The notes under the pieces are model-generated. The model made no database searches and had not been told where the DNA came from. It saw nothing but the letters and a program-made list of their open reading frames with translations. DNA of 64,000 bases from Neocallimastix sp. 'constans' (taxonomy: Eukaryota), in NCBI GenBank assembly GCA_050613775.1, contig JBODTK010000100.1, forward strand, positions 496,001-560,000. Reading direction: 5' to 3'. Positions within the stretch are counted from its first letter, which is position 1; each line of letters starts with the position of its first letter. A program made the position numbers and the translations under genes. This document shows, piece by piece, positions 42,157-61,578 of this stretch.

Positions 42157-43943
42157 TGGTAAAGAATGACTATAAATTACTTATTTTGTTATGTTTAGAC
42201 ATAACTTTGTCAAAATTAAGATATAAAATAGTTTTATGATTAATAACGTTACTAGATTAATATGTTGAATTATATATTAATAATCCAACAATAATTAATT
42301 AATAATAATATAATTAAAATAATATAAGATAAATAGTTAAGTTATTTAAACACTTAATATCTAAGAATATTTTAAATAATAATTTCTTTGAAGGATTTAT
42401 GAAAATATTTATTTATTGAATTATTAGTATATAATTATTGTAAATACAATAACCTTACAAAGAACATAAAAGATAGATTTTTACATCTTTCTTTTATACT
42501 TTGTAAGTTACATAATAATAGTATTTAATTATAAGATATTAATAATATAGTAATATGAATATTAATAAAATATTAAGATAATAACAATATCGATATGTTT
42601 AAAATATTTAATATAACTAAATAAATTTAATTTATAATTATATAATTAATTTGAATAATTAAAAATAGTAGTTAATATATATGATGTAAACATATATATA
42701 AACATAATATAAATAAATACATGTGACGTCATATGTAGATAATTGAAATTATTAATATAAATCTTATTTATTAATATTCTCAGAATTATTAGGCCTAAGA
42801 TAATTCTTTAAATATTAAATAAGAATTTATATTAATTATTAATTATTTAAATATATATATTATTTATAATTAAATAAATAATATTTTTTAACTATTGAAA
42901 TGTAAATAACTGAAATTGAGATTTCAATTCAGTTATAATTTCAACAAACTTAATCATAATTAAGTTTATATTCTTTACTAATGGAACTTTCTTATATTCT
43001 TCCCTGAATTAAATTAAAAATTTTATTATATAATATTATAAATTAATTAAAATTATTATAATATTAATTAAAATCTTTATAAAAATATTTTTTATAAAAT
43101 CATTACTGAATCTTAATTAAATTAATATTAAAATACATATAAACTCTTCAAAAATTTATATTAACAAATTCTTTATTGAATCTATATTAAAATTATTTTA
43201 TATTTTTATTATATTTTTATCAAATTAATTATTATTAACTTTCAATAACACTATAAATTAATATTAATTTTTATTAAACTTAAAATAAATTATCATTAAA
43301 TAATTTATTATCTTTTATAAAATTCAATTAATATTTTTGTAAACTTTTAATTAAAAATTTTATTAAAAACTTTTAATTATTTACTCCAGATATTATTTAA
43401 TTAAAATCTTTATAATATCTTTTTTTTAAATAATAATTTTTTATTCCTTTATGGAATTTATATTAAACTATTAATAATTTTATTTAACATTTAATTAAGA
43501 ATGAATTAATAATTCTTATAATTAAATACTTAAATTCTTTTTCATTTCCAAGATATTAAACTTTAAAAATGAAATCGAATATAAATATCTGAAGAAAATA
43601 ACTTCTTCTAAATATATAAATAATATAACACAAAACAATAATAAAAATAATAAAAATAATAATAATAATAATAAAAATAATAATAATAATAAAAATAATA
43701 ATAATAATAATAAAATAAAAATAGTAATAATATTAGTAATAATATAAGTAATAGTATTAATATTAATATTAGGAATAGTAATAATTTAGCTAAAAAAATT
43801 TAATTAGTTTAATAAATAATGTAATTACTTTAAAATTTAAATAAATAAATAAATTATAAAATTGTTATTGTGTAAATAAATATTTTAAATCTTTATCTTT
43901 TGTGTATAAAAAAAAATTTTGTTTTTCCCAATGAACCATAACA
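42157..43943 (+). mobile_element. Solo LTR family M (TGGTAAAGAATG...GAACCATAACA) with nested insertion
   Basis: Termini shared with families E and H. Confidence 0.82.
42208..42946. mobile_element. Nested class 3 solo LTR (family X)
   Basis: TGTCAAAA...TTTCAACA; TSD AACTT/AACTT; inverted relative at 51663-52372. Confidence 0.85.
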
Positions 43944-43948
43944 ATTTT

Positions 43949-44333
43949 TGTAATAATTTAATTAAAAAATTATAATTAAATTATTAATCATTAATATTAG
44001 CTCTAATATTAATGATTAATAATTATTTTAGAATTTTTATAATAAATAATAATTCAAATAAAATAATTAATTAATAAACAAAACCATTTTTAATAAAGCA
44101 TATTTTATAAATATTTGTGTCTTTTATTCCTTTTGTGTTATTGTTTATTATAAACTTTCTATAATAAACTCTATCTTATATTTAAGTTAAGTATAATTAT
44201 TTATTTATATTATTTTATATTTATTTAATTATATTTAATTTTATTTTCTCAAATTAATGTTAATTAGTAATAATTAATGTTAATTTGTAGTTAAGAAATT
44301 ATTTATAATTAATTTTATAAGTAATTTCTTACA
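43949..44333. mobile_element. Rearranged LTR: family D 3' end fused to family P 3' end in opposite orientation
   Basis: Starts like 4720, ends like the reverse complement of 49212; palindrome at the junction. Confidence 0.72.
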
Positions 44334-44340
44334 TATTTTT

Positions 44341-45296
44341 TGTAATAATCATACTAAGTTCTATTACTAAATATGATTATTAACTTCAACTTAATGACTA
44401 ATTCATTAAATTGAGAAATAAAATAAAAATAAAAATTTTACCTAAAAAAGAGTTTATTATAAAATTAATTATAATAACAACACAAAAACTAAAGGAAGAA
44501 ATATTTGTATAAAGTTAAAGTTGGTTTTAAAGAATATGTTTTTAAATAAAATATTTTATTAATTTATTAAAGTTTAGAATGTAATATTGTTATTATTATA
44601 ACTATCTTTTTATAATAATAACTCTTGATTTCTATTTAAGAAATCAAGAGCCCTTTTTATATTTTTTTATTAATTTAATGTTAAATAAAAAGTTTTTCTA
44701 ATCTTAAAAATTATCTTATCTAGAAAAAGATTAGAAGAAAAAACTAGATAAGTTTTGATCGATATTCTATTCATATCGATCATCGTATATATTAAGTAAA
44801 ACCAAATATATTATTTTATATTTAGATAAAACCTTAATATATCGATTTTCTAAATTTTAATTTAGATCATCAAATAAAAGGAAAAATAAATAATAACCGG
44901 AATGATCTAAATTACTCTATTTTTCTAAATATTATTTTTAAAATCTAATCTAAGCTTATTAACATAAATCTATCTTTAAAAAATACAGAAACTTATTAAT
45001 TGTTCTTTTAAATGTACAATGTACAAAATAAATAAAACTAATGTTTACATTAACTTAATAATTAAATGAATAACTAAATAAAATTAATAATATTAATAAA
45101 AGAATATATAATAGTTATTTAAATAAATTTTTTAATATTATTTTAGTGTATGAATAATTATATTTTTAATAAATTTGATAATAATATTTCAATGTATGAA
45201 TTAATTATAATTTAAATAAATTTATAATTATTATCAATAATTATAAAGACTAAGAAATAGTAATTATTTATTAATAAATAATTATTATTTCTCACA
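44341..45296 (-). mobile_element. Solo LTR family O (self-priming class)
   Basis: ATAATAACTCTTG motif, conserved hairpins, TTTTT/TTTTT flanks. Confidence 0.85.
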
Positions 45297-59231: not shown

Positions 59232-59234
59232 TTT

Positions 59235-60101
59235 TGATAAAGAATGAAGTAATAAATTGATTCTTATTAAAAACCTTTTAATATATGTTAAGATAATAAT
59301 TGAATTTCCATTTAATTCGATTTCAATTTCAATTTCAATAATTCAGTTATTTGAATTTCAATATTAATAATTAATAATATAATAATTATTATTAAAATAT
59401 TTAGGAAATAGTCTAGGCCAACTAATTACTAAATATTATTAACATATTGAAATTAATATATATTAAATAATGTAAACACGTGATTGTCATTAAATTAATT
59501 TCTACATATTATATTTTAATTATAAAAATATTTAGCAAATATTATATTCTTATATTTTATTTATATTAAATATTTATATTATTATCTTAGTTTATATTAT
59601 CAATATCAAACTTATATTAATACTATTACATATTCATATTAATAATTAGTATTTTGATAATTAATTATTTTATATAAATACATGTTTAAATCTTTTGATT
59701 AATCCTTTGTAGGATTATTGTAATTTAAATTATAGTAATAATTATATAAAATAATAATGTAATAAAATATTATTAAGATTAAATAAAATTTATATTTTAA
59801 ATAAAAACTTGATTATAAAATTTACTAATAACAATATGTTTTAAACAAGAGTAAATTTAAATTATTAAAAAATTACTATAATTTGGCATCTTGACCTAAT
59901 CGTTAAGACCAAATTATCTAAAAACTTTAACAATATAGTCAATGTGATTTTTAAAATATTAATAAATTTATGTATTCTTTACATTAATAATTTTACTATA
60001 TTATTTGATCTGAAAATTTAAGTTTATACATAAAATTTAATTTAAATTTATGTTCATTCCTTATAAAGGTAAATTAAATTTATGAGAGTCTATCAACAAC
60101 A
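59235..60101 (+). mobile_element. Truncated solo LTR family H with nested insertion
   Basis: Matches 17138 to about 17351 once the nested LTR is removed. Confidence 0.85.
59286..59932. mobile_element. Nested class 3 solo LTR (family Y)
   Basis: TGTTAAGATA...TTTAACA; TSD ATATA/ATATA. Confidence 0.88.
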
Positions 60102-60107
60102 TTTTTG

Positions 60108-61578
60108 TGTAATAATTCTATTAAGAACTAACTCAAAATAGAATTATTAACTATATGTCAAAGTTTTAAGATAATTTGGTCTTAACGATTAGGTCAAGAT
60201 GCCAAATTATAGTAATTAATTAATAATTTAATTTTACTCTTATTTTAAACATATTATTATTAGTAAATTTTATAAATAAGTTTTTATTTATAATATAAGT
60301 TTTATTCAATATTAATAATATTTTATTACATTATTATTTTATATAATTATTACTATAATTTAAATTACAATAATCCTACAAAGGATTAATCAAAAGATTT
60401 AAACATGTATTTATATAAAATAATTAATTATTAATATGAATATGTAATAGTATTAATATAAGTTTGATATTGATAATATAAAATAAGATAATAATATAAA
60501 TATTTAATATAAATAAAATATAAGAATATAATATTAGCTAAATATTATATTTTATAATTAAAATATAATATGTAGAAATTAATTTAATGACAATCACGTG
60601 TTTACATTATTTAATATATATTAATTTCAATATGTTAATAATATTTCGTAATTAGTTGGCCTAGACTAATTCCTAAATATTTTAATAAAGTTAATTTAAT
60701 AATAATTATTATATATTATTATTCATTAATATTGAAATTTAAATAACTGAATTATTGAAATTGAAATTGAATTGAAATTCAGTTATTATCTTAACACTAC
60801 AACTTAACGACTAATTCATTAAGTTGAGAAAATAAAATAAGATAAATTTTTTTACCTTTAGAGTTTATTATAAAATTAATTATAATAATAACACGAGAAG
60901 TAAGAGAAGAATTATTTGTATAAATTTGATTTTAAAATATGTTTTTTGAATAAAATATTTTATTAATTTATTAAAGTTAAAAATATAAAATTGTTACTAT
61001 TATAACTATGTTTTTATAATAATAACTCTTGATTTCTCAGAGAGAACTCAAGAGCCTTATTTATATTTTTTTATGAAAATAAGGTTAAATAAGAAAGGGT
61101 TTTCTAATCTTAAAAAATCTCTTATCTAGGAAAAGATTAGATAGAAAAACCTAGATAAGTTTTCGATCGATATTCTATCCATATCGGTCATCGCATTAAT
61201 TAAGTAAAACCGATTACTTCTAAAAGTAATTGGGAAAAATCTTAACCGATTTTTCAATCTAATCTAATGATCGAAAATAAAAGAATAAAATAATAAAGAT
61301 ATTTCGATCATATAATTTATCCTTATATAAAAAATATAAAATTAAATAGTTAATAAAATACAGAATACATTATAAAATACAGAATACATTAGTTACAGTA
61401 GAGAAATTAATATATTGTAAATATATTATTTAAAATTAAATAAATTTTGTTAAATTAATGAATATTTAAAAATAAATTTAATGAATAAATATTATATGTA
61501 ATTAAATAAAGTTATAGTTATAATAACTTAACTAAGAAAATATAATTATTTGTTAGCAAATAATTATAGATTCTTACA
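60108..61578 (-). mobile_element. Solo LTR family B with nested insertion
   Basis: TTTTG/TTTTG flanks. Confidence 0.9.
60156..60796. mobile_element. Nested class 3 solo LTR (family Y, inverted relative to 51003)
   Basis: TGTCAAAG...ATCTTAACA; TSD CTATA/CTACA. Confidence 0.88.

What the first reader, a model, noticed from the sequence alone, without database searches (positions are those of the whole stretch)
42157..60796. Second fixed landing site: all seven nested insertions sit 48-51 nt inside the tRNA-facing end of their host LTR
Seen (host start to insert start): 42157 to 42208 (51), 46196 to 46246 (50), 50954 to 51003 (49) plus a second insert originally at 48 (now 51663), 55562 to 55613 (51), 59235 to 59286 (51), 60108 to 60156 (48). 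The hosts are five families in both orientations. The 5-bp TSDs are unrelated (AACTT, TTATT, TACAT, CTACA, TTTTC, ATATA), and the inserts occur in both orientations. Sequence preference therefore cannot explain the position, but distance from the left can. The two family B hosts, which start 2 nt further out (after a duplicated TG), show the shorter offsets, as expected if distance is measured from the tRNA. Inference: a third element class (TGTT/TGTC...ACA; families X, Y, Z) targets about -65 from the tRNA and hit each host while it was first in the stack. This is independent internal support for the conveyor model. By analogy with yeast Ty1 these could be Copia elements, but no internal sequence is present to show that.
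Basis: partly seen in the sequence, partly recalled or inferred. Interest (0 to 1): 0.9.

Follow-up and report, generated by a model that had tools for sequence, protein, structure and literature searches.

The report
Second retrotransposon landing site near tRNA
In a gut fungus, seven jumping-gene ends sit 48-51 bases inside the tRNA-facing end of older jumping genes stacked beside a tRNA gene, which likely marks a narrow landing site about 67 bases upstream of tRNA genes, used by a probably self-priming retrotransposon group.

Summary
All 7 inserts (641-1221 nt, 5-nt target duplications, 6 exact) start 48-51 nt inside the left, tRNA-facing end of 6 host LTRs of 5 families, and 54-56 nt from the left neighbour's end. 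None lies at a right end, and X/Y/Z termini occur nowhere else in the window. Hosts landed about 16-18 nt upstream of tRNA-Ser, so the site maps to about -66 to -68, probably fixed by the RNA polymerase III complex. That step is inferred: no X/Y/Z copy was seen directly upstream of a tRNA, no genome was available, and the far stack may have been built at another tRNA gene. The Copia guess is doubtful. In 3 of 3 AT-rich metagenome hits the Z LTR is followed by a self-priming site (13-nt perfect complement) and an unknown Neocallimastix ORF, which points to a Tf1/sushi-like Ty3/gypsy; no pol gene was found. Published narrow LTR windows at tRNA genes lie within 33 nt; narrow windows near -50 are LINEs. 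Six literature searches found no report for these fungi. The scan's earlier notes hold tRNA stacks in other fungi, not this one.

The parts
7816..7897 (-). tRNA-Ser(GCT), the only tRNA gene in the window; presumed anchor of the stack (first LTR base at -16)
   Evidence: ARAGORN; Rfam RF00005; distance
7913..64000 (.). Stack of 30 first-order LTR units (full-length Ty3/gypsy elements and solo LTRs) joined by 3-7 nt spacers; runs off the window
42157..43943 (+). Host 1, tRNA-primed-class solo LTR (U3 end on the left)
42208..42946 (-). Insert Y1, 739 nt, TSD AACTT, offset 51
   Evidence: strand from primer-like motif
46196..47890 (+). Host 2, family D self-priming LTR (U3 end on the left)
   Evidence: 98.3% to 49212-49685 once the insert is removed
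46246..47466 (+). Insert X1, 1221 nt, TSD TTATT, offset 50
50954..53212 (-). Host 3, family B self-priming LTR (U5 end on the left), hit twice
51003..51658 (+). Insert Z1, 656 nt, TSD TACAT, offset 49; self-primer at LTR positions 433-445
51663..52372 (+). Insert Y2, 710 nt, TSD CTACA, original offset 48
55562..57594 (+). Host 4, tRNA-primed-class solo LTR
55613..56818 (+). Insert X2, 1206 nt, TSD TTTTC, offset 51
59235..60101 (+). Host 5, family F LTR truncated to 215 nt
   Evidence: 97.7% to 17138-17352
59286..59932 (+). Insert Z2, 647 nt, TSD ATATA, offset 51
60108..61578 (-). Host 6, family B LTR (U5 end on the left)
60156..60796 (-). Insert Z3, 641 nt, TSD CTATA/CTACA, offset 48

Best explanation
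X, Y and Z are related LTR-type inserts of a likely self-priming, probably Tf1/sushi-like Ty3/gypsy retrotransposon group, whose integrase is inferred to be positioned by the RNA polymerase III complex on a tRNA gene and to cut about 61-68 nt upstream of it. Shown: seven 5-nt-TSD inserts within 4 nt of one offset, always at the tRNA-facing end; a self-priming site behind the Z LTR. Inferred: two other lineages land at about -16 (4-nt TSD, tRNA-primed) and about -18 (5-nt TSD, self-primed), so whichever LTR landed last occupies -16 to about -900 and the -67 site falls about 50 nt inside it. The next -16/-18 insertion pushes host and insert away together. The inserts probably became solo LTRs by LTR-LTR recombination. 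The cut would lie about 50-57 nt upstream of the transcription start, just beyond the upstream edge of TFIIIB, or on the near edge of the first nucleosome. The tethering partner is untested. The distal block may have been built at a different tRNA gene.
For: Offsets 48-51 from host start (SD 1.4) but 54-56 from the left neighbour's end (SD 0.6). Offsets shift with the host class in the direction expected. 6 of 6 hosts hit on the left, at U3 and U5 ends alike; no target consensus. Z1 landed 1 nt inside Y2, a repeat use of the site. The first stack element starts at -16 of the tRNA with a TSD equal to the present flank. Z LTR followed by a 13-nt perfect complement of its own positions 433-445 in L005, L008 and L009; 0 of 1000 shuffles reach 13, maximum 11; this stem closes the predicted fold, z -5.6. 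Family B in this window, a Ty3/gypsy with SH3_Tf2-1 and Ty3_capsid matches, has the same geometry. X and Y carry a similar motif 254-321 nt from their 3' ends. One loose end in run X1 places a Z 3' end about 53 nt inside a family-A LTR, a host not hit in this window (15-nt exact match; post hoc, few contigs).
Against: No X/Y/Z copy was seen at -67 of a tRNA with ordinary DNA between; the three metagenome Z loci show only the internal side and hold no tRNA. The nearest tRNA is 34-53 kb from the inserts. Chaining all TSDs gives -66 to -69 (SD 1.15), hardly tighter than the host-start measure, and the host phase drifts from 15 to 20. The loose-end case is at 53, outside 48-51, with two mismatches next to the insert. 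No pol gene is linked to X, Y or Z; the ORF behind the Z primer site has no Pfam match and a low-confidence model gives a helical hairpin, not a capsid fold. Self-priming is shown for Z only and is not exclusive to Tf1/sushi (PMC6317226). None of the 11 proximal units has an insert.
Confidence: 0.66

Rival explanations
1. The anchor is the LTR-LTR junction, not the tRNA. A host factor bound at LTR ends, made polar by replication-fork or transcription direction (as recalled for Sap1 and Tf1 in fission yeast; from memory, not checked here), would direct X/Y/Z about 55 nt to the right of a junction at any time after the stack formed.
For: The tightest measure is the distance from the left neighbour's end, 54-56 nt. 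All observed cases, including the loose end, are inside LTRs. It needs no brief period with the host first in line.
Against: The left neighbours are unrelated ends: U3 and U5 ends of five families and one truncated end. 0 of 7 inserts lie to the left of a junction although both orientations of the same ends are present. The neighbour-end distance is also what a tRNA anchor predicts, since each neighbour's end marks the fixed -12 position.
Confidence: 0.17
2. The site is tRNA-anchored but X/Y/Z are Ty1/copia elements that hit the first hotspot of the first upstream nucleosome, as yeast Ty1 does.
For: TGTT/TGTC...ACA ends and 5-nt TSDs fit. Ty1 hits two hotspots per nucleosome upstream of tRNA genes (PMC3545840, first part read). 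Plant TAR Copia elements are predicted to self-prime (PMC6317226, passages). A short Copia-like integrase motif lies at about 7380-7500 (motif recalled; no Pfam match).
Against: Ty1 spreads over about 1 kb with hotspots about 70-80 nt apart; here 7 of 7 lie in one 4-nt window and 0 at the next positions. Z's primer geometry matches the Ty3/gypsy family B of the same window. All five coding elements with Pfam or PDB matches here have the RT-RH-IN order or Ty3/gypsy matches.
Confidence: 0.13
3. The pattern comes from a few old events copied by recombination or gene conversion, or from assembly error.
For: The stack shows recombination: TSD breaks at 3 units and a rearranged block at 46196-50108. 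Family B is hit three times at nearly the same base.
Against: Seven different combinations of insert, host, orientation and TSD; Z copies differ by 3-4% and X copies by 0.8%. The Z 3' end has many different flanks in 4 of 4 laid runs, and the Y 5' end in at least 3.
Confidence: 0.04

Closest known systems
Tj1 of Schizosaccharomyces japonicus (Tf1/sushi chromovirus; PMC4600332, passages read)
   Same: Proposed self-priming LTR element with a 5-bp TSD that integrates upstream of tRNA genes.
   Different: [quoted passage not shown] Z has an unrelated ORF behind its primer site.
Ty3 of Saccharomyces cerevisiae and DGLT-A of Dictyostelium (PMC5911963 section 11 and passages; PMC5006619 passages; bioRxiv 10.1101/2021.07.27.453949 passages)
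   Same: Narrow Ty3/gypsy window at tRNA genes; Ty3 is tethered by TFIIIB. This fits the host classes at -16/-18.
   Different: They land about 15 nt upstream (13-33 for DGLT-A), on the gene side of TFIIIB; X/Y/Z would be on the far side.
TRE5-A and NLTR-B of dictyostelids (PMC5391098 passages; PMC5911963 Table 1)
   Same: A second, more distal fixed site (40-54 and 39-64 bp) in genomes that also carry a -15 LTR element; TRE5 ORF1 binds TFIIIB.
   Different: They are non-LTR elements; X/Y/Z have LTR ends and 5-nt TSDs, and lie slightly further out.
Ty1/Ty2/Ty4 of S. cerevisiae (PMC3545840 first part; PMC10347736 and PMC7459421 passages)
   Same: Land well upstream of tRNA genes, often inside older LTRs.
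   Different: Copia clade, broad 1-kb window with two hotspots per nucleosome; here a single 4-nt window and a self-priming site.

Membership tests
LTR retrotransposon (solo LTR) | TG...CA ends with a 4-6 nt TSD | tested here: met
   7 of 7 with 5-nt TSD (6 exact); Y2's TG is mutated to TA
LTR retrotransposon (solo LTR) | The same unit found as a 5' LTR before a primer site and internal sequence | tested here: met
   Z only: L005, L008, L009; X and Y parents not found
Tf1/sushi chromovirus (Ty3/gypsy) | Primer site complementary to the LTR's own R start | tested here: met
   Z: 13 nt, 3 of 3 loci, 0 of 1000 shuffles; X and Y show only a similar motif
Tf1/sushi chromovirus (Ty3/gypsy) | RT-RH-IN order and RT phylogeny in the chromovirus clade | not testable with these tools
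   No pol linked to X/Y/Z; contigs end within 1.3 kb of the LTR; other collections empty
Tf1/sushi chromovirus (Ty3/gypsy) | Chromodomain at the integrase C-terminus | not testable with these tools
   No integrase found
Tf1/sushi chromovirus (Ty3/gypsy) | Gag capsid ORF directly behind the primer site | tested here: inconclusive
   The 254-311 aa ORF has no Pfam match; model pLDDT 48, helical hairpin; may be an extra 5' ORF
Ty1/copia | IN-RT-RH order | not testable with these tools
   No pol found
Ty1/copia | tRNA-complementary primer site (usual, not universal) | tested here: not met
   Z's primer site is self-complementary; plant TAR is a predicted exception (PMC6317226)
Ty1-type tRNA targeting | Periodic insertions over about 1 kb | tested here: not met
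   7 of 7 in one 4-nt window; small sample
Ty3/DGLT-A/Tj1-type tRNA targeting | Insertion within about 33 nt of the mature tRNA | tested here: not met
   X/Y/Z never occupy a first-order junction among 30 units
TRE5/NLTR-B | Non-LTR structure | tested here: not met
   LTR ends and primer site
Pol III gene-targeted retrotransposon (general) | Copies at a fixed distance from several different tRNA genes | not testable with these tools
   No genome held; metagenome hits and laid contigs show no tRNA flank

The most novel reading that the evidence does not exclude
Anaerobic gut fungi carry a self-priming LTR retrotransposon lineage that integrates with near base precision about 67 nt upstream of tRNA genes, on the far side of TFIIIB. 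Three LTR lineages would then share one Pol III promoter at -16, -18 and -67, and a 56-kb stack records their order of arrival.
Probability: 0.55. Interest if true: 0.76.

Novelty: new variant of a known kind. Interest (0 to 1): 0.62.

Why it matters
tRNA-gene targeting has arisen many times, but the LTR elements tabulated in PMC5911963 either land within 33 nt of the gene or spread over 1 kb. A precise LTR site near -67 would be a new docking geometry on the Pol III complex, in an early-diverging fungal group where my searches found no report of such targeting. It gives a plain genome-wide prediction (a peak at -66 to -68). It also offers a candidate safe landing site and integrase for fungi that are hard to engineer.

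Tried and rejected
Whole-genome test: no genome is held, and the metagenome loci have no searchable record. Viral contigs gave nothing for X/Z or Y patterns, the Z ORF, or two host pol proteins. Genome contigs gave nothing for the ORF alignment and one bacterial chance hit. Of 9 metagenome hits, 6 were GC 38-62% and did not match Z, so they were dropped as chance. Only one read-laying result was obtained; its loose ends are mostly mixed consensus (agreement 0.54-0.71) of at most 30 letters and cannot show a tRNA distance; 42 loose ends were not shown. Searches for longer proteins holding the Z ORF found none; the representative search found 6 relatives only; the Atlas gave no usable hit for it or for the opposite-strand ORF of L009. 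I ran no fold search, because the model was low-confidence. Rfam at E 0.05 found only the tRNA. Sequence preference at the target was rejected. B-family divergence along the stack is compatible with an age gradient but does not date the inserts.
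Full report
Setting. The window is very AT-rich (11-34% GC per 2 kb). Host pol homologues include Orpinomyces gene models and the ORF linked to family Z has named relatives only in Neocallimastix, so this is an anaerobic gut fungus, likely Neocallimastix. No genome is held. One tRNA gene, tRNA-Ser(GCT), lies at 7897-7816 on the minus strand. From 7913 (position -16) to the window end I count 30 first-order LTR units. The coding ones are Ty3/gypsy by Pfam domain order, and Ty3 is the best PDB match for the two pol proteins tested.

Two host classes. LTRs starting TGA/TGG have tRNA-type primer sites (TGGTGG at 8531, 20036, 36728) and fit 4-nt TSDs. LTRs starting TGTAA are self-primed (family B 13 nt, family D 10 nt of complement), fit 5-nt TSDs and usually start about 2 nt further out. 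Under these TSD lengths 25 of 29 testable units match on their visible bases. The T-rich spacers make matching easy. The four mismatches are at 18192, 41192, 43949 and 45304; the last is one substitution.

The observation. All seven inserts are real (coordinates in the parts list), with offsets 51, 50, 48, 49, 51, 51, 48. Four of six hosts match an empty sibling once the insert is removed. I found no nested insert at any other offset, and X/Y/Z termini occur only in these seven. The chance figure for the clustering is about 2e-12. X, Y and Z are related: X and Z share a motif near the 3' end, Y and Z near the 5' end. By the primer-like motif five point away from the tRNA and two towards it.

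What fixes the position. Target sequences share no evident consensus. Four U3 ends and two U5 ends are hit, always on the left (1/64 if either end were equal). Offsets are 51 in all three hosts of the -16 class and 48-50 in the -18 class (1/35 by insert, 1/20 by host). The distance from the left neighbour's end is 54-56 nt, SD 0.6 against 1.4 from the host start. So the ruler starts left of the host. With hosts at -16 and -18 the first inserted base is at -66 to -68. Chaining every TSD from the tRNA instead gives -66 to -69, SD 1.15, with host phases drifting from 15 to 20, so the absolute value is good to about 2 nt.

Limits of that inference. The spacer changes from TCTT near the tRNA, through ATTT/TATT/ATAT, to T-runs beyond 42154, and the TSD breaks at the unit just before. 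All six hosts lie beyond it (0 of 11 against 6 of 19, P=0.046). Either X/Y/Z were active earlier, or the distal block grew at another tRNA gene and was joined by LTR recombination. A polar factor at LTR junctions explains the same numbers and cannot be excluded from this window, though the left neighbours are unrelated ends.

Outside evidence. A metagenome scan with an X/Z pattern gave 9 hits; 3 are true Z ends at 88-97% identity and 6 are GC-richer chance hits. In all three the LTR is followed by a site that pairs over 13 nt with LTR positions 433-445. No shuffle of 1000 reaches this, and it forms the outer stem of the predicted RNA fold (z -5.6). An ORF of 254-311 aa follows, with a conserved N-terminal block and C-terminal motif, no Pfam match, 13 relatives in the first search, and a low-confidence helical-hairpin model. 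It may be an extra 5' ORF; no pol was reached. Contigs of four runs from four studies (4 of the 22 listed; X1 may be the window's own source) show many different flanks at the Z 3' and Y 5' ends. One loose end in X1 reads, after two unmatched letters, as the reverse complement of positions 37-51 of family A (window 2254-2268, 54626-54640), which would be an eighth insertion at offset 53. A rough expectation by chance is 5e-4, but I spotted it by eye after the fact, and its far letters rest on few contigs. The other readable loose ends matched no host end that I could see (compared by eye), and none showed a tRNA.

Mechanism. Best reading (0.66): a likely self-priming Ty3/gypsy group is tethered to the Pol III complex and cuts at about -61 to -68. 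With the transcription start about 10-12 nt upstream of the mature tRNA (PMC5911963, PMC5006619) this is about 50-57 nt upstream of the start. TFIIIB is placed at -15 to -32 in the Ty3 structure (bioRxiv 10.1101/2021.07.27.453949) and -40 to +5 on yeast 5S DNA (PMC5391098), so the site would lie just beyond it. These are yeast numbers carried over by inference. Rivals: junction anchor (0.17), Copia at the first nucleosome hotspot (0.13), copying or assembly artefact (0.04).

Comparison. Table 1 of PMC5911963 (section 11 read, plus passages) lists gypsy elements within 33 nt of tRNA genes, Copia elements over about 1 kb, and LINEs at 39-64 nt. Tj1 (PMC4600332, passages) is the closest in kind: self-priming and tRNA-targeted, but at 5-11 nt. 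Self-priming marks Tf1/sushi (bioRxiv 10.1101/2022.12.06.519325, passages) but is also predicted for plant Copia TAR (PMC6317226, passages), so I do not file X/Y/Z as members of Tf1/sushi. Other papers seen: PMC5006619, PMC5391098, PMC10347736, PMC7459421 (passages), PMC3545840 (first of two parts). No supplements were read. Searches for reports in these fungi (0 papers; 6 papers, 5 listed, off topic by title and abstract start; 4 papers, none on these fungi by title) found none. The library lacks most subscription journals, so genome papers or repeat databases may mention it.

Verdict. The pattern is real and far beyond chance; a tRNA anchor is likely but unproved; Copia is doubtful. New variant of a known kind, interest 0.62.

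Noticed in passing
window 28198-35294 (-): Full-length family B element: self-priming, Tf2-like SH3, ORF ends about 10 aa after that domain with no chromodomain match; a self-primed lineage at about -18 of a tRNA gene.
   Followed up: partly
window 43949-44333: Odd unit: about 57 nt of an inverted family C U5 end joined by a short foldback to 312 nt of family D that starts at the self-primer. It looks like an integrated aberrant strong-stop product.
   Followed up: partly
window 2218-59235: All 9 LTR starts of the TG(G/A)TAAAGAA class are on the plus strand, pointing away from the tRNA; families B, C and E occur in both orientations.
   Followed up: partly
window 46196-50108: Two family D LTRs face each other around a 1.3-kb non-coding middle; the right one has a purine tract on one side and a primer site on the other. 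Probably a rearranged block.
   Followed up: no
window 1-6222: A second stack with ATAT spacers, ending in a minus-strand element truncated near the tRNA's 3' end; its LTR (5759-6222) is 98.3% identical to 54122-54584. No nested inserts.
   Followed up: partly
window 7380-7500 (-): About 45 codons resembling a Copia integrase core (motif recalled, no Pfam match), fused in frame to a gag zinc-knuckle remnant.
   Followed up: partly
window 35981-38709: Deleted element whose two LTRs are unrelated (about 40% different), so a chimera of two families.
   Followed up: partly
window 20036-22277 and 33191-34413: Long leaders (2.2 and 1.2 kb) with GC-richer patches; no Rfam match at E 0.05.
   Followed up: partly
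L009 1-417 (+): A 138-aa open frame converges on and overlaps the end of the Z-linked ORF; no useful Pfam or Atlas match.
   Followed up: partly
run X4 loose end at 51646: A Z 3' end followed by 5 nt and then a TGTAAAG start like a Z-type 5' end; possibly two elements in tandem at one site.
   Followed up: no
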